Source: a virus
Taxonomy: Duplodnaviria; Heunggongvirae; Uroviricota; Caudoviricetes
IMG/VR virus record: IMGVR_UViG_2609459856_000002
Reading direction: 5' to 3' (one strand)
DNA: 4,322 nucleotides
Position 1 is the first letter of the stretch. Each line of letters begins with the position of its first letter. The translations under genes were made by a program, and so were the position numbers. The notes under the pieces are model-generated. The model did not search any database, was not told the DNA's origin, and saw only the letters and a program-made list of their open reading frames with translations. Shown one piece after another: positions 1 to 4,322 of the stretch.

Positions 1-413
1 AACGCCAGGTGGTGAAGGATGCTTTTTATATTCATCAGCATAAAGGAACCACCAGTGCCGTGCGGCGGGGGGTGGAGCCGTTCGGCTTTCTGATCCGCAT
101 TATTGAGTGGTGGCAGACCGGAGAAACACCAGGCACGTTTCGCCTGGATATCGGCGTGCAGGATCAGGGCATCACTGAAGATACCTATCTGGAACTTGAG
201 CGACTGATAAGCGATGCCAAACCATGTAGCCGTCACATGATCGGCATGTCCATCAATCTGCAGACCAGCGGCCCGCATTGGGTGGGAGCCGCCAGTTATC
301 TTGGCGAAGAAATCACGATCTATCCGTATATCAACGAAACAATTATTTCCGGCGGCACCGCGCATGAAGGCGGGGCGGTCCATGTTATTGACACAATGAG
401 AGTGAATCCATGA
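1..413 (+). CDS. Phage baseplate/tail protein, P2 gpI-like; 5'-partial (frame open to the window start, stop TGA 411-413)
   Basis: The ORF frame has no stop between the window start and 413, so the gene probably begins upstream. Its stop overlaps the start of the downstream tail fibre gene (ATGA at 410-413), typical of coupled phage late genes. The gpI assignment is from position immediately upstream of a gpH-like fibre gene; I do not recognise the protein sequence itself with certainty. Confidence 0.55.
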
Positions 414-1810
414 GCACAAAATTTTATACCCTGCTGACGGATATTGGCGCGGCGAAACTTGCCAGCGCCGCCGCGCTCGGTGTGCCTTTAAAAATTACCC
501 ATATGGCGGTCGGCGATGGCGGCGGAACATTACCAACGCCGGACGCAAAGCAGACAGCACTGGTAAATGAGAAACGCCGGGCTGCGCTGAATATGCTCTA
601 TATCGACCCGCAGAACAGCAGCCAGATTATTGCTGAACAGGTGATCCCTGAAAACGAGGGCGGTTGGTGGATACGTGAAGTGGGCTTGTTTGATGAGTCC
701 GGGGCATTGATTGCCGTGGGTAACTGCCCGGAAAGCTATAAGCCGCAACTGGCTGAAGGCAGTGGGCGTACCCAGACCGTGCGCATGGTGCTGATTACCA
801 GCAGTACGGACAATATCATCCTGAAAATCGACCCTGCTGTAGTGCTGGCAACCCGCAAGTATGTGGATGACAAGGCACTGGAGCTGAAGGTGTACGTGGA
901 TGACCTGATAGCAAAACATCTTGCCGCACTGGACCCGCATTCACAGTATGCACCCAAAGAAAGTCCGACATTTACCGGAACCCCCAAAGCGCCAACGCCA
1001 GCGGCGGGGAATAATACCACTCAGCTTGCGACCACCGCATTTGTTCAGGCGGCACTGACGGCCCTGATTAATGGTGCGCCAGCCACGCTGGACACGCTGA
1101 AAGAAATAGCCGCAGCCATTAACAATGACCCGAAATTCAGTACCACCATTAACAATGCGCTGGCACTGAAAGCGCCGCTGTCGAGTCCGGCACTCACCGG
1201 AACGCCAACAGCCCCCACGGCGGCGCAGTCGGTCAACAATACACAGATTGCCACTACGGCTTTTGTGAAATCGGCGATTGCGGCAATGGTGGGTTCTGCA
1301 CCTGCGGCACTGGATACACTGAACGAACTGGCGGCGGCACTGGGGAATGATCCGAACTTTGCCACGACAATGCTTAATGCGCTGGCAGGTAAACAACCGC
1401 TGGACAATACGCTGACTAATTTGAGTGGAAAGGATGTAGCTGGTCTTCTCACATACCTTGGTTTGGGAGAAGCGGCAAAAAGGAATGTGGGGACAGGGAC
1501 GAATCAGATACCTGATATGGGTAGCTTCACGCTTTCTGTTTCAGGTACTGGATATCAAAAATTACCATCTGGTTTTATTCTTCAGTGGGGCTCAATCGGC
1601 GCACCAGGCATTGCACAGGATGTGGTAACCCATTTTCCGATTGCATTTCCAAACAGATGTCTGCGTGTTTTGGTCTCACAAGACTACACACCAGATAGCG
1701 GGGCTGTTGGTTATATTGCCTGTGCAGGTTTTAGTCCCGACCCGGTTAAATTTATATCCAGAGCCAGTACTCCTGGCCTCGGCGCTTCATTTTTAGCGTT
1801 AGGCTGTTAA
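410..1810 (+). CDS. Tail fibre protein (P2 gpH-like): constant N-terminal part (codons 1-349) fused to the currently expressed variable C-terminal cassette (codons 351-466)
   Basis: 466-aa ORF. The N-terminus [18 protein letters not shown]...HMAVGDGGG...AEGSGR has the hallmark pattern of P2 gpH-family fibre N-termini. There is an internal Ala/Thr-rich tandem repeat. The left crossover site falls in codon 350, so sequence downstream of 1459 belongs to the invertible segment. The C-terminal part carries a [14 protein letters not shown] motif that I recall from fibre tip domains. Confidence 0.9.
962..1402 (+). repeat. Intragenic tandem duplication, 2 x ~74 codons, in the tail fibre shaft (962..1183 and 1184..1402)
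   Basis: Protein repeats [73 protein letters not shown] and [73 protein letters not shown] align end to end. The DNA copies have diverged, so the duplication is old. It resembles the repeat unit common in P2-type fibre shafts. Confidence 0.6.
1446..1471. other. Left crossover site for the DNA invertase (gix/cix/pix/hix-like, 26 bp): TTCTCACATACC-TT-GGTTTGGGAGAA
   Basis: Two 12-bp half-sites with dyad symmetry (TTCTCaCAtACC versus the reverse complement TTCTCcCAaACC) flank a 2-bp core TT at 1458-1459. This matches the known architecture and TTCTC/TTATC...AAACC half-site pattern of Hin/Gin/Cin/Pin sites. A partner site lies in inverted orientation at 3314..3339. Confidence 0.75.
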
Positions 1811-1831
1811 TTTAGCTATATGGAGTGAAAA

Positions 1832-2272
1832 ATGAATTACATATATTCCGCGACTACAAACTCTTTCTATCCGCTGGAGATGAAAGAGGATTACACTCAA
1901 GCTGACTCATGGCCAGATGATGCTGTTGAAGTTGATGAGCAAGTGTATATTGAGTTTTCCGGATTACCACCAAAAGGAAAAATCCGTATCGCTGGAGAAA
2001 ATGGTTTTCCTGCATGGTCTGAAATTCCACCACCAACACATGAGGAACAGATTGCTGCAGCCGAACTGGAAAAGCAGCAACTGATTAATCAGGCCAACGA
2101 TTATATGAACAGTAAACAATGGCCTGGTAAAGCGGCTATTGGTCGTCTGAAAGGTGAGGAACTGGCGCAATATAATTTGTGGCTGGATTATCTGGACGCA
2201 CTGGAACTGGTTGATACCTCCAGTGCTCTAGATATTGAATGGCCTACGCCTCCGGCAGTTCAGGCCAGATGA
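1832..2272 (+). CDS. Tail fibre assembly protein (chaperone), cassette currently in the expressed orientation
   Basis: 146-aa ORF directly downstream of the fibre gene, with a GGAG Shine-Dalgarno at 1822-1825 six nt before the ATG. The C-terminus ...LDYLDALELVDTSSALDIEWPTPP is the conserved C-terminal signature of phage tail-fibre assembly (Tfa) proteins. Confidence 0.85.
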   Translation: MNYIYSATTNSFYPLEMKEDYTQADSWPDDAVEVDEQVYIEFSGLPPKGKIRIAGENGFPAWSEIPPPTHEEQIAAAELEKQQLINQANDYMNSKQWPGKAAIGRLKGEELAQYNLWLDYLDALELVDTSSALDIEWPTPPAVQAR

Positions 2273-2846
2273 CATTCGGCGCGGTGCTGGTATCTGTTGC
2301 CGTCACTGCGTCAATGTAATCCAGCACAGCGTTAAGTCGGGTGGTTTCTGCCTGCGTCAGCTTCCGTCCGGCCTGTAGTTTCAGTTGAATCAGACTAATG
2401 GAAGCCATTGCTGCATCAATCAGTGACTGGCGCAGTGCTTCTGCCGCGTCTACTGCGGCATTATGCTGTGCCTCAGTATCTGTCACCCATTTCTCACCAT
2501 CCCATTCATCGTATGGCGTTAACGGGGCGATAGTGGTCGTATTTTCAGGATAATCACCCGGACCTGTGATTTCTTTCGATTCTCCTGTTTCGGTGCTATA
2601 AACGATTTCACCGCGATGGTCTGGCACATATTCCCATGAGTTTAAATCCATCGAACGGCAGATAGCATAACCCGCCTTATGTGTGCCAGGGGCATCTAAA
2701 CAGGAATATGCAGGGATACCGACACCAATGGCAAGATATTCATTTGAAGTGGAAATATATTCCCGAGTTTCACCATCATAGTTATAGACGGTAATATTCC
2801 CCGCCTTCGTGGCAATAAGCTCGCTATTTAATACGGCGTTATCCAT
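2244..2846 (-). CDS. Tail fibre assembly protein (chaperone), alternate cassette in the silent orientation
   Basis: 200-aa ORF on the - strand. The C-terminus ...LDYIDAVTATDTSTAPNVIWPELPEA shares the Tfa signature with the + strand chaperone. Its ATG overlaps the stop of the upstream fibre cassette by one base (TAATG on the - strand at 2848-2844). Confidence 0.8.
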   Translation of the reverse strand: MDNAVLNSELIATKAGNITVYNYDGETREYISTSNEYLAIGVGIPAYSCLDAPGTHKAGYAICRSMDLNSWEYVPDHRGEIVYSTETGESKEITGPGDYPENTTTIAPLTPYDEWDGEKWVTDTEAQHNAAVDAAEALRQSLIDAAMASISLIQLKLQAGRKLTQAETTRLNAVLDYIDAVTATDTSTAPNVIWPELPEA

Positions 2847-3367
2847 TATGCAGCCCTCACGATAAAGTTAAATGCAATATTTCGTGGACGGGTTTCACTC
2901 CCGCCAGTATTACCGATACTCCCTCGTGAATGAAGTGTCGGTGATGGGATCAGACTCCCTCCTGTATTTGTGGCATCAAGTCCCCGTCCTTGTGTGTATG
3001 TCTTTTTGAAAATCGTAGCCAGTTCCCATTCATCTTTTGTGTCGTAACCATCATTGGCAACAACAATATGACGGTGCTTTTCCAGCATCCCAGCCTGAAG
3101 GCTCAATAAAGCACGTCCTGCATCAATACCGCGCCCGTCATCCCAGCCACGAATAAACTCACCGCGTAAATCAGGTAATTTATTTGCCGGGTAAGCCTTT
3201 GCCAGTTTCGGGTATTCTTCAGCAGAAAAAGGAGCACCGTTGCATTTCAGCCAGCCTGTTGGAGGTGTCTCAGAAGGCCACGGAACAGGCGCACCAATAG
3301 GTAATGCTGAACCTTCTCCCAAACCAACGTTTATGAAAGTGCAGAGATAATGGCTAACTGGCATCAT
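2846..3367 (-). CDS. Alternative tail fibre C-terminal cassette (Sv'), silent in this orientation; the functional part is 2846..3325, and codons upstream of the crossover lie outside the segment
   Basis: The - strand ORF ends ...ETRPRNIAFNFIVRAA and contains DLRGEFIRGWDDGRG, closely resembling the C-terminal collar-type domain of Mu S / P1 S-type fibres as I recall them (ending NIAFNYIVRLA). It has no constant N-terminal domain of its own. It is in frame with the fibre constant region across the crossover site: after inversion the junction would read ...[18 protein letters not shown].... Confidence 0.8.
   Translation of the reverse strand: MMPVSHYLCTFINVGLGEGSALPIGAPVPWPSETPPTGWLKCNGAPFSAEEYPKLAKAYPANKLPDLRGEFIRGWDDGRGIDAGRALLSLQAGMLEKHRHIVVANDGYDTKDEWELATIFKKTYTQGRGLDATNTGGSLIPSPTLHSRGSIGNTGGSETRPRNIAFNFIVRAA
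3314..3339. other. Right crossover site for the DNA invertase (26 bp): TTCTCCCAAACC-AA-CGTTTATGAAAG
   Basis: The reverse complement of 3313..3327 is identical to 1458..1472 (TTGGTTTGGGAGAAG, 15/15). The inner half-site TTCTCCCAAACC matches the family consensus; the outer half-site (reverse complement CTTTCATAAACG) is degenerate. It lies 55 bp upstream of the invertase ATG. Confidence 0.7.
3346..3351 (+). promoter_or_regulatory. Candidate -10 hexamer (GATAAT) for the invertase promoter
   Basis: GATAAT lies 44 bp upstream of the invertase ATG and 7 bp downstream of the right crossover site. Any -35 element at standard spacing would overlap the crossover site; that region (AACCAA) is a poor match to TTGACA. 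Sequence-only guess. Confidence 0.25.
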
Positions 3368-3394: not shown

Positions 3395-3961
3395 ATGCTT
3401 ATTGGCTATGTACGCGTGTCAACAAATGACCAGAACACCGATTTGCAACGTAATGCACTGAACTGCGCGGGATGTGAGCGGATTTTTGAGGACAAAATCA
3501 GTGGTACTAAGTCCGACAGACCGGGGCTTAAAAAACTGCTCAGGACACTATCGGCAGGTGACACACTGGTTGTCTGGAAGCTGGACAGGTTGGGGCGCAG
3601 TATGCGGCATCTTGTTACTCTGATAGAAGAGTTGCGCCAGCGCGGCGTGAATTTCAGAAGTCTGACTGACAGTATTGATACCAGTACCCCAATGGGCCGT
3701 TTCTTTTTTCATGTCATGGGTGCCCTGGCTGAAATGGAACGCGAACTGATAGTTGAACGTACCAGGGCAGGGCTGGCTGCAGCTCGTGCTAAAGGCAGAG
3801 TAGGTGGACGCCGTCCTAAGTTGACCACCGAACAGTGGGCACAGATTGGACGTTTACTAGAGGTCGGAGAATCAAGACAGCGTATTGCACTGATTTTTGA
3901 TGTGGGCGTTTCTACCATTTATAGAAAATTTCCGGCAAATAAGAGCAGTGAATCCCCCTGA
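3395..3961 (+). CDS. Site-specific DNA invertase, serine recombinase of the Gin/Cin/Pin/Hin family
   Basis: 188-aa product starting MLIGYVRVSTNDQNTDLQRNAL, with the catalytic serine at residue 9 (codon 3419-3421). Conserved blocks VVWKLDRLGRS, SLTDSIDTSTPMGRFFFHVMGALAEMERELIVERT and GRVGGRRPKL, plus a C-terminal helix-turn-helix, are near-identical in pattern to Gin/Pin. Shine-Dalgarno AGGGGA at 3383-3388. The ORF track starts at 3350 (MANWHH...), but family N-termini begin at MLIGY, so 3395 is the likely start. Confidence 0.93.
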   Translation: MLIGYVRVSTNDQNTDLQRNALNCAGCERIFEDKISGTKSDRPGLKKLLRTLSAGDTLVVWKLDRLGRSMRHLVTLIEELRQRGVNFRSLTDSIDTSTPMGRFFFHVMGALAEMERELIVERTRAGLAAARAKGRVGGRRPKLTTEQWAQIGRLLEVGESRQRIALIFDVGVSTIYRKFPANKSSESP

Positions 3962-4103: not shown

Positions 4104-4322
4104 ATGGCTCAGGATTACCACCACGGGGTGCGCGTTGTTGAAGTCAACGAAGGCACCCGATCCATTACCACGGTGAGCACCGCCATCGTGGGTATGGTCT
4201 GCACGGGCGATGATGCCGATACAAAAATGTTTCCTCTTAATAAACCCGTGCTGATCACTGATGTGCTGACTGCCAGCGGTAAAGCGGGTGAGTCCGGTAC
4301 TCTGGCCCGTTCGCTGGATGCC
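4104..4322 (+). CDS. Tail sheath protein (P2 gpFI-like), 3'-partial (runs off the window end)
   Basis: ATG at 4104 is preceded by CAGGAGG (4088-4094). The frame is open for 73 codons to the window end: [54 protein letters not shown].... This closely resembles the N-terminus of P2 FI-family sheath proteins (MSDYHHGVQVLEINEGTR...[12 protein letters not shown]...[10 protein letters not shown] as I recall it). It is absent from the ORF track only because there is no stop in the window. Confidence 0.85.

What the first reader, a model, noticed from the sequence alone, without database searches (positions are those of the whole stretch)
2846..3325. The two alternative receptor-binding cassettes appear to be unrelated domain types
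The silent cassette ends with a collar-type signature (DLRGEFIRGWDDGRG ... NIAFNFIVRAA), like Mu/P1 S-type fibres. The expressed cassette has a [14 protein letters not shown] motif and a different C-terminus. Apart from the GLGE junction they show no obvious similarity, implying that the switch toggles between structurally different tips and probably different receptors. My recall of these families is imperfect.
Basis: partly seen in the sequence, partly recalled or inferred. Interest (0 to 1): 0.45.

Follow-up and report, generated by a model that had tools for sequence, protein, structure and literature searches.

The report
Tail-fibre inverton with two unrelated tips
A P2-like prophage carries a DNA flip-switch that swaps the end of its tail fibre between two unrelated receptor-binding domains; this is real, but it is the usual arrangement for such switches and is already present in the e14 element of E. 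coli K-12.

Summary
The expressed tip (nt 1460-1810) is a Pfam Gp53-like_C domain. The silent tip (2846-3325, minus strand) is a Pfam Collar domain with the T4 gp37/gp12-type C-terminal strand. BLASTP and profile-profile comparison align only the LGLGE junction, which is encoded by the crossover site itself. Profile searches against solved structures give disjoint hits: AP22 gp53 and R-pyocin fibres for one tip, T4 gp37 and gp12 for the other.

There is an intact Pin/Gin-type serine invertase and two 26-bp sites in inverted orientation. Inversion in silico gives an in-frame 509-aa fibre. Each tip has its own chaperone, and the flipped state exists in other E. coli genomes.

It is not unusual. 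The e14 P segment of E. coli K-12 (StfP/StfE/PinE) has the same Gp53-like_C plus Collar pair. This was the commonest pairing (12 of 38) in a survey of related invertons. Mu and P1 also toggle between different Pfam families.

Different receptors are inferred, not shown. Both AlphaFold models failed, so fold differences rest on sequence links to solved structures.

The parts
1..413 (+). 3' part of a P2 gpI-like baseplate gene, cut by the contig start
   Evidence: PF09684 Tail_P2_I, E 5.8e-23. Gene order matches E. coli N96 and phage Cartapus.
410..1810 (+). Tail-fibre gene (P2 gpH-like, 466 aa) in its current state: a constant shaft fused to the Gp53-like tip
   Evidence: PF12571 Phage_tail_fib at aa 1-150 (E 5e-64) and PF21882 Gp53-like_C at aa 384-466 (E 1.2e-13).
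1446..1471 (+). Left crossover site (gix/pix-like, 26 bp): TTCTCACATACC|TT|GGTTTGGGAGAA, core at 1458-1459. It encodes ..TYLGLGE..
   Evidence: Inverted repeat I1. Exact 15-mer twice against 0 expected. Coordinates checked. The same core repeat is reported for e14 in PMC12529663.
1460..1810 (+). Expressed tip cassette: [16 protein letters not shown] linker plus the Gp53-like_C domain (nt 1559-1807)
   Evidence: Pfam. Profile of 22 such tips hits PDB 4mtm at E 1.7e-14 and R1/R2 pyocin fibres at about 1e-9.
1832..2272 (+). Tail-fibre assembly chaperone (146 aa, short type) cognate to the Gp53-like tip
   Evidence: PF02413 Caudo_TAP, E 3.7e-37. Of 27 Gp53-like tips surveyed, 17 are followed by a TAP with this N-domain and none by the long type.
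2244..2846 (-). Tail-fibre assembly chaperone (200 aa, TfaE-like long type) cognate to the Collar tip. Its 3' end overlaps the other TAP gene convergently by 29 bp.
   Evidence: PF02413 at aa 78-199. PF28596 Caudo_TAP_N is precomputed for it. It is annotated tfaE in relatives. Of 23 Collar tips, 19 are followed by this type.
2846..3325 (-). Silent tip cassette. Collar domain (Pfam match nt 3152-3295), hypervariable insert (about 2891-3094), conserved C-terminal strand RPRNIAFNFIVRAA (2849-2890), stop codon 2846-2848.
   Evidence: PF07484, E 1.2e-14. T4 gp37 tip 2xgf at E 3.9e-19, including the C-terminal strand. Alignment A1 shows the conserved / variable / conserved layout.
3314..3339 (+). 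Right crossover site: TTCTCCCAAACC|AA|CGTTTATGAAAG, core at 3326-3327, inverted relative to the left site
   Evidence: It aligns with the e14 pinE-proximal site and the Mu gix site.
3326..3367 (-). 14-codon leader with ATG (MMPVSHYLCTFINV) that stays beside the invertase and heads whichever cassette is silent
   Evidence: ORF 2846..3367. After in-silico inversion it heads a 130-aa ORF that is 95% identical to database protein P0021.
3395..3961 (+). Pin/Gin/Cin-type serine DNA invertase (188 aa from MLIGYVRVST)
   Evidence: PF00239 Resolvase (E 2.5e-53) plus PF02796 HTH_7 (E 1.2e-14). It is 86% identical to e14 PinE, 79% to P1 Cin and 75% to Mu Gin.
4104..4322 (+). 5' part of the tail-sheath gene (P2 FI-like), cut by the contig end
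   Evidence: PF22671. Synteny with relatives.

Best explanation
This is a Pin/Gin-type invertible segment (1866 bp between the crossover cores, nt 1460-3325) inside the tail-fibre gene of a P2-like prophage.

The serine invertase encoded next to it (3395-3961) recombines two 26-bp sites that lie in inverted orientation. Both sites encode the peptide L-G-L-G-E in the fibre reading frame.

In the orientation sequenced, the constant shaft (aa 1-350) is fused to a 116-aa tip that ends in a Gp53-like_C domain. In solved relatives this domain is a lectin-like beta-sandwich. The tip is followed by its short chaperone.

After inversion the same shaft is fused in frame to a 159-aa tip. That tip consists of a collar domain, a hypervariable insert and a returning C-terminal strand, as in T4 gp37 and gp12. 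It is followed by its long TfaE-like chaperone.

A lysogen population would therefore release virions with one or the other tip, which is bet-hedging on host range.

Shown here: the parts, their family assignments, the in-frame fusion, tip-chaperone co-variation, and the existence of both orientations among related genomes. Inferred: that inversion occurs in this strain, that the two tips bind different receptors, and which receptors those are.
For: The crossover sites are an exact inverted 15-mer with 0 matches expected by chance.

In-silico inversion yields a 509-aa in-frame fibre and a 130-aa silent ORF. That ORF matches a 205-member database cluster at 95% identity.

The flipped junction (P2-like shaft fused to a collar domain) is contiguous in 377 of 5426 complete E. 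coli genomes. The probe covers only the conserved collar part, so it matches any Collar-type tip. The window-state junction is contiguous in 24.

E. coli ST130 carries the same type of prophage with the Collar tip and tfaE expressed and a gp53-like cassette silent. The in-silico inverted window aligns to it colinearly over nt 1-2819 at 94.8%.

The tips are unrelated by BLASTP (E 0.1), by hhalign (14.6%, junction only) and by disjoint PDB hit lists.

The chaperones share only about 70 C-terminal residues (35% identity) and have unrelated N-domains. The N-domain type tracks the tip family with no exception in 96 surveyed tips. This fits the modular Tfa model of North et al. 2019, as summarised in PMC9608196.

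Inversion of the homologous e14 segment and of invertible loci in P2-like prophages has been observed experimentally (PMC4272514; PMC12529663).

R-pyocin fibres have a lectin-like beta-sandwich at the C-terminus, and LPS-core sugars are part of their receptor sites (PMC6116203).
Against: There is no direct evidence that this particular copy inverts. The window is a single 4322-bp contig in one orientation.

No receptor is identified for either tip.

Both AlphaFold2 models failed (pLDDT 39 and 35). The statement that the folds differ therefore rests on sequence-profile links to solved structures, not on models of these proteins.

Fis-enhancer function could not be tested.
Confidence: 0.85

Rival explanations
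1. The two tips are very distant homologues with the same fold, diverged beyond sequence recognition. The switch would then toggle between variants of one domain type.
For: Both are C-terminal trimeric fibre tips grafted at the same junction, and both use a Caudo_TAP chaperone with a shared C-terminal module. No usable structure models were obtained, so fold identity was not excluded directly.
Against: hhalign probability is 14.6%, restricted to the site-encoded junction. The profiles hit non-overlapping sets of solved structures at E 1e-14 and 1e-25. Domain layouts differ: one is a compact C-terminal domain, the other a collar, an insert and a returning strand. The chaperone N-domains are also unrelated and family-specific. 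One natural cassette (L018) carries Collar and Gp53-like_C in tandem, so they behave as separate modules.
Confidence: 0.03
2. The switch is a fossil. The silent cassette and/or the invertase no longer function, and only the Gp53-like tip is ever made.
For: Only one orientation is seen in this contig. Related records include a frameshifted invertase (CP019275) and truncated silent cassettes (for example vB_EcoM-611R5).
Against: All five ORFs are intact and full length compared with their relatives. The invertase keeps the N-terminal YVRVST motif and is 86% identical to PinE. The inner half-sites and core dinucleotides of the two sites match exactly. The silent tip is 92-98% identical to proteins found in the expressed configuration elsewhere.
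Confidence: 0.07
3. The segment mainly serves the host. Inversion changes which free tip fragment is made in the lysogen, and that fragment masks surface receptors against other phages, as proposed for e14 StfE2.
For: PMC12529663 reports that inversion of the homologous e14 P segment yields StfE2, a leader plus the gp53-like domain. StfE2 reduces T2 adsorption. The same kind of ATG-headed leader ORF exists here (173 aa now, 130 aa after inversion).
Against: Here the segment sits in what looks like a complete P2-like tail module: I, H, chaperones, then sheath, tube and tape measure in the closest relative. The virion host-range role is therefore the direct reading. No sigma-70-like promoter was found for the leader ORF. 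In the e14 work the receptor-blocking step rests on docking only. The two roles are not mutually exclusive.
Confidence: 0.1

Closest known systems
P segment of the e14 element of E. coli K-12 (stfP/ycfK, tfaP, tfaE, stfE, pinE)
   Same: Gene order is identical. The domain pair is the same: StfP is Gp53-like_C (E 8.4e-16) and StfE is Collar (E 1.4e-15). The silent tip is 57% identical to StfE. The long chaperone is TfaE-like. The invertase is 86% identical. The core repeat TTGGTTTGGGAGAAG is the same.
   Different: In e14 the constant part is a short fragment of about 96 aa in a defective lambdoid element. Here it is a 350-aa P2 gpH-type shaft in a P2-like tail module. The Gp53-like tip is only about 30% identical to that of StfP.
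P2-like prophages and phages with a tail-fibre inverton (E. coli N96 and ST130 prophages, plasmid-prophage CP019275, phage Cartapus, Klebsiella phage KP12)
   Same: Same tail module and invertase at 94-97% DNA identity. N96 has the same cassettes in the same orientation. ST130 has the Collar tip expressed.
   Different: The cassettes are swapped modularly between relatives. Cartapus pairs a weak Gp53-like tip with a Gp53-like tip. No complete genome in the collection is more than 94.6% identical over the whole window.
G segment of phage Mu and C segment of phage P1 (S/U and S'/U', Gin/Cin)
   Same: Same mechanism: a serine invertase, 26-bp sites that encode the junction peptide (NLGLQE / NLGLRE), alternative fibre C-termini each with its own Caudo_TAP chaperone, and alternative tips from different Pfam families.
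   Different: The Mu/P1 tips are Gp34_trimer and gp37_C, two to three times longer (320-535 aa), and unrelated to either tip here. P1 has 0.6-kb inverted repeats.
T4 gp37 long-fibre tip and gp12 short-fibre tip (PDB 2XGF, 1OCY)
   Same: The silent tip shares the collar domain and the C-terminal NIAFNYIVR strand (E 3.9e-19; profile E 2.3e-25). It has an H-x-H motif right after the collar.
   Different: The insert between the collar and the returning strand is only about 68 aa here, far shorter than the corresponding stretch of gp37. It is hypervariable among relatives. It uses a Caudo_TAP chaperone encoded downstream.
AP22 gp53 and R1/R2 pyocin fibre C-terminal domain (PDB 4MTM, 6CL5, 6CL6, 6CXB, 6CT8)
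   Same: The expressed tip belongs to the same Pfam family, and its profile matches these chains over the whole domain. Pyocin fibres also need a downstream chaperone (PMC6116203).
   Different: Pairwise sequence similarity is low (single-sequence E about 1e-3). The knob and shaft domains of the pyocin fibre were not found here.

Membership tests
Gin/Cin/Pin/Hin-type DNA inversion system | Small serine recombinase: Resolvase catalytic domain plus a C-terminal HTH | tested here: met
   PF00239 E 2.5e-53 and PF02796 E 1.2e-14. N-terminal MLIGYVRVSTNDQ carries the serine motif. 86% identical to PinE, 79% to Cin, 75% to Gin.
Gin/Cin/Pin/Hin-type DNA inversion system | Two 26-bp sites with a 2-bp core, in inverted orientation, bounding the segment | tested here: met
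   Sites at 1446-1471 and 3314-3339, with cores TT and AA. Exact 15-mer twice against 0 expected. They align with the e14 and Mu sites.
Gin/Cin/Pin/Hin-type DNA inversion system | Fis-dependent recombinational enhancer in the 5' part of the invertase gene | tested here: inconclusive
   The first roughly 120 nt of the gene are highly conserved with e14 pinE and Mu gin. They correspond to the annotated P1 cin enhancer position, nt 18-89 of cin. Fis binding cannot be tested here.
Gin/Cin/Pin/Hin-type DNA inversion system | The segment is actually found in both orientations | tested here: inconclusive
   This contig shows one orientation only. Both states occur among related E. coli genomes. Inversion is reported experimentally for e14 and for invertible loci in P2-like prophages.
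Pfam Collar (PF07484) / T4 gp37-gp12-type tip | Match to the family HMM above the gathering score | tested here: met
   54.5 bits against a cut-off of 24.
Pfam Collar (PF07484) / T4 gp37-gp12-type tip | The chain returns to the collar: conserved C-terminal strand (NIAFNYIVR) | tested here: met
   It aligns to the last 24 residues of 2xgf and to the gp12 C-terminus. It is invariant or nearly so in 21 relatives.
Pfam Collar (PF07484) / T4 gp37-gp12-type tip | Metal-binding H-x-H motif and an intertwined trimeric head formed by the insert | not testable with these tools
   An HRH motif is present after the collar, but it is not conserved across alignment A1. The monomer AF2 model failed (pLDDT 34.7). 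The role of the motif in gp12 and gp37 is from my own knowledge of those structures.
Pfam Gp53-like_C (PF21882) | Match to the family HMM above the gathering score | tested here: met
   51.9 bits against a cut-off of 24.9, over profile positions 1-84 of 84.
Pfam Gp53-like_C (PF21882) | Lectin-like beta-sandwich fold, as in 4MTM and 6CL5 | not testable with these tools
   The sequence profile matches 4mtm at E 1.7e-14 and the pyocin fibres at about 1e-9 over the full domain. The AF2 model failed (pLDDT 39.2), so no fold search was run.
   Mu S and P1 S are PF21446. Mu S' and P1 S' are PF12604. BLASTP of the silent tip against Mu S and S' gives E 0.57 and 0.38.
Caudo_TAP tail-fibre assembly chaperones (PF02413) | HMM match, with a conserved C-terminal module and a tip-specific N-terminal domain | tested here: met
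   E 3.7e-37 and 1.9e-30. Only the last 72 residues of the two chaperones align. The N-domain type co-varies with the tip family.
P2-like (Peduoviridae) tail module | Order gpI - gpH - chaperone(s) - (invertase) - sheath FI, with the P2-type fibre N-terminus | tested here: met
   PF09684, PF12571 and PF22671. Colinear with phage Cartapus (Peduoviridae) and the N96 prophage, which continues into tube, tail assembly proteins and tape measure.

The most novel reading that the evidence does not exclude
The cassette beside the invertase may not be truly silent. The fixed 14-codon ATG leader (3326-3367, minus strand) would let the lysogen make a free tip fragment: 173 aa Collar-type now, 130 aa Gp53-like after inversion. 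Each flip would then change both the virion tip and a cell-made receptor-masking protein. Kirigo et al. 2025 propose this for e14 StfE2.
Probability: 0.08. Interest if true: 0.5.

Novelty: already known. Interest (0 to 1): 0.15.

Why it matters
Its value is mostly as a correct annotation. The contig encodes a phase-variable phage tail fibre with two receptor-binding modules, and the fibre gene in related assemblies should be read in both orientations.

The survey adds three points of context:
- The LGLGE-type junction works as a general graft point. At least seven different tip families are joined to fibre shafts through it.
- Collar plus Gp53-like_C is the commonest pairing among these Enterobacterales invertons.
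- Each tip family travels with its own chaperone N-domain.

These points may help anyone engineering phage or tailocin host range. None of this changes current understanding of these systems.

Tried and rejected
**AlphaFold2 on both tips.** Only near-identical E. coli homologues (87-98% identity) could be placed in the alignments. Both models failed (pLDDT 39.2 and 34.7), so no fold search was run.

**Third protein search, with a profile of 22 diverse Gp53-like tips.** It was meant to add alignment diversity but returned the same set of near-identical E. coli sequences.

**NCBIfam scan.** Nothing above cut-off for the fibre, the tips or the chaperones. The invertase hit only sub-threshold recombinase models.

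**Promoter and terminator scan.** No promoter-like site for the silent ORF, and counts were not above the shuffled expectation.

**Loose clustering of tips.** Single linkage at 40% coverage merged Collar and Gp53-like tips into one cluster, because of shared linkers and one natural chimera (L018). It was replaced by a criterion of 70% mutual coverage.

**First inverted-repeat finder.** It picked spurious repeats in several loci. It was replaced by a site-motif search with a fixed reading frame.

**First in-silico inversion.** It was off by one base and gave a frameshift. It was corrected after re-indexing the sites.

**Literature on a 'collar domain' in Ur-lambda.** This refers to a different structure and was not used.

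Full report
**What is in the window.** The 4322 bases are a complete small contig, JNMN01000052.1 of assembly GCA_000700365.1. It carries part of a P2-like tail module. In order, the features are:
- The end of a gpI-like baseplate gene (1-413).
- A 466-aa gpH-like tail-fibre gene (410-1810).
- A 146-aa tail-fibre assembly chaperone (1832-2272).
- On the other strand, a 200-aa chaperone (2244-2846).
- A promoter-distal fibre C-terminal cassette (2846-3325).
- A 188-aa serine recombinase (3395-3961).
- The start of the tail-sheath gene (4104-4322).

The closest complete genome is E. coli N96. It has the same genes in the same order at 94.6% identity. There the module continues into tube, tail assembly proteins and tape measure. 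Phage records with the same module include Escherichia phage Cartapus (Peduoviridae) and several Klebsiella and E. coli P2-like phages.

**The switch.** Two 26-bp sites lie in inverted orientation. The left site is 1446-1471, TTCTCACATACC|TT|GGTTTGGGAGAA. The right site is 3314-3339, TTCTCCCAAACC|AA|CGTTTATGAAAG. The shared 15-mer occurs exactly twice, against zero expected in shuffles. It is the same core repeat reported for the e14 P segment.

Inverting the 1866 bp between the cores in silico gives two products. One is an in-frame 509-aa fibre ending in the second cassette. The other is a 130-aa invertase-proximal ORF that is 95% identical to a 205-member protein cluster in public data.

The recombinase has Resolvase and HTH_7 domains. 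It is 86% identical to e14 PinE, 79% to P1 Cin and 75% to Mu Gin. Its 5' coding region is conserved with pinE and gin where P1 cin has its annotated enhancer.

**Checking the observation.** The quoted motifs are at the stated places.

*Family assignment.* Pfam puts the expressed C-terminus in Gp53-like_C (PF21882, E 1.2e-13). It puts the silent cassette in Collar (PF07484, E 1.2e-14). Both scores are roughly twice the gathering threshold.

*Similarity between the two tips.* BLASTP between them is not significant (E 0.1). I assembled 21 diverse Collar-type tips (A1) and 22 diverse Gp53-like tips (A2) from related invertons. hhalign between the two alignments gives 14.6% probability, and only the junction columns align.

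*Links to solved structures.* Profile A2 hits AP22 gp53 (4mtm, E 1.7e-14), the R1/R2 pyocin fibres (6cxb, 6ct8, 6cl5, 6cl6, about 1e-9) and a short tail fibre, gp92 (9zd7, 7.8e-08). Profile A1 hits the T4 gp37 tip (2xgf, 2.3e-25), another short tail fibre (9cuy, 1.7e-23) and T4 gp12 (about 1e-5). The two lists do not overlap.

**Anatomy of the two tips.** The Collar-type tips have three parts:
- A conserved collar of about 80 residues.
- A hypervariable insert of roughly 35-100 residues (about 68 here).
- A nearly invariant C-terminal RPRNIAFNYIVRAA strand.

The last strand aligns to the end of T4 gp37 and gp12. In the T4 proteins the chain returns to the collar after forming the receptor-binding head. 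The insert is therefore the likely specificity determinant here, which is an inference.

The Gp53-like tips have a conserved AAKR.VG...QIPDM linker. It is followed by the G..LP.G.IIQWG and FP..FPN motifs and a C-terminal WIAIGY-like end. In R-pyocin fibres the homologous domain is a lectin-like beta-sandwich. LPS-core sugars are part of the R-pyocin receptor sites (PMC6116203).

My two AlphaFold2 runs failed because only near-identical homologues could be used (pLDDT 39 and 35). The difference in fold therefore rests on these sequence-to-structure links.

**Chaperones.** Both are Caudo_TAP proteins. They share only the last 72 residues or so (35% identity), and their N-terminal parts are unrelated. 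One search gives the pattern across 96 surveyed tips:
- 19 of 23 Collar tips are followed by a 196-215-aa chaperone with the long N-domain seen here, and none by the short type.
- 17 of 27 Gp53-like tips are followed by a 139-152-aa chaperone with the short N-domain, and none by the long type.
- A natural Collar plus Gp53-like chimera (L018) has the short type, so the chaperone follows the C-terminal-most domain.

This fits the modular chaperone model of North et al. 2019, as summarised in PMC9608196.

**Is the flipped state real?** A probe for the inverted junction (P2-like shaft fused to a collar domain) is contiguous in 377 of 5426 complete E. coli genomes. This probe covers only the conserved collar part, so it counts any Collar-type tip. 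The junction as it stands in the window is contiguous in 24.

E. coli ST130 has the same type of prophage with a 509-aa fibre plus tfaE expressed and a gp53-like cassette silent. The in-silico inverted window aligns to it colinearly. Inversion of e14 and of invertible loci in P2-like prophages has been seen directly in cultures (PMC4272514; PMC12529663). For this contig itself only one orientation is available.

**How ordinary is it?** E. coli K-12 itself carries the same pair. In e14, StfP is Gp53-like_C and the stfE cassette is Collar, 57% identical to the silent tip here. TfaP, TfaE and PinE stand in the same order. The gp53-like nature of the StfP C-terminus is already noted in the literature.

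Mu and P1 also toggle between different families. S is Gp34_trimer and S' is gp37_C, and only the junction is similar.

I surveyed relatives of the invertase in one genome per species, adding Mu, P1, e14 and several phage records. I located sites by motif, translated the tips in the fixed frame, clustered them, and Pfam-scanned one representative per cluster. Among 38 distinct multi-cassette invertons:
- Collar plus Gp53-like_C was the commonest pairing (12). Either member could be in the expressed position. In two of the 12, the Gp53-like label is below Pfam's threshold.
- At least 22 invertons pair different families.
- 10 invertons pair the same family.

Other families joined through the same junction are Peptidase_S74, Phage_tail_C_2, Gly_rich_2 and gp37_trimer. 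The sample is biased towards Enterobacterales relatives of this invertase.

The silent cassette is not 'like Mu/P1 S-type fibres'. It has no similarity to Mu S or S', and those proteins belong to other families.

**Verdict.** That the two tips bind different receptors is likely and untested.

One less ordinary reading remains open. The invertase-proximal ORF might be expressed as a free receptor-masking fragment, as proposed for e14 StfE2. I found no promoter-like site for it.

Noticed in passing
L018:5344-5916 (-) (Siccibacter colletis, NZ_JMSQ01000001.1): One 191-aa silent cassette carries both a Collar domain (E 1.5e-14) and a Gp53-like_C domain (E 3.4e-11) in tandem. The partner cassette is plain Collar, and the inverted repeat there is 213 bp long because both cassettes share the collar part. 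Its chaperone is the short, Gp53-type one.
   Followed up: partly
L008, L014, L016, L019, L021, L027, L031, L033, L036, L039, L040, L042 and others: In about 25 of 79 loci the contig ends within about 200 bp upstream of the invertase gene. Assemblies seem to break at the invertible segment, probably because of mixed orientations or repeated prophages. The window itself is a whole 4322-bp contig that ends inside conserved P2-like genes.
   Followed up: no
L045, L046, L050-L053, L055, L072, L079 (Enterobacter, Buttiauxella, Citrobacter, Pseudocitrobacter): A second class of invertons uses longer tips (220-360 aa) of the Peptidase_S74 (intramolecular chaperone) and Phage_tail_C_2 (PF25670) families. 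In most of these loci the two cassettes abut or overlap, and none has a Caudo_TAP gene.
   Followed up: partly
L060:2568-5927 (Pantoea allii); L032:66-1062 (Escherichia sp. MOD1-EC7003): Some invertons have more than two cassettes. L060 has one Collar and two Gly_rich_2 tips with three sites. L032 has two Collar cassettes in tandem on the same strand. This resembles the multi-inversion systems reported for a P2-like prophage in EPEC.
   Followed up: no
window 2182-2203 / 2304-2325 and 2244-2272: The two chaperone genes converge and overlap by 29 bp. A 22-nt imperfect inverted repeat (82%) lies on either side of the overlap. It reflects the conserved C-terminal LDY(L/I)DA motif encoded on both strands, not a terminator.
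   Followed up: partly
window about 970-1400 (fibre aa 188-330): The shaft contains two tandem copies of a roughly 72-aa unit (..TG(T)P.APT(P)AA...NTTQ(L/I)ATTAFV...AP(A)(T/A)LDTL.E(I/L)AAA(I/L).NDP.F.TT..NAL..K.PL). These also show up as short direct DNA repeats (families D8 and D9).
   Followed up: no
proteins P0144, P0174, P0190, P0195: Several database copies of the Collar-tipped fibre carry misleading source names: 'integrase' and 'microcystin-dependent protein'.
   Followed up: no
The same two tips, at 93-100% identity, sit mostly on short fibres of 213, 229 or 256 aa. These lengths match an e14-like short constant part of about 97 aa, though I did not examine the N-termini. The cassette pair therefore appears to move between short-fibre and P2-like shafts.
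   Followed up: partly
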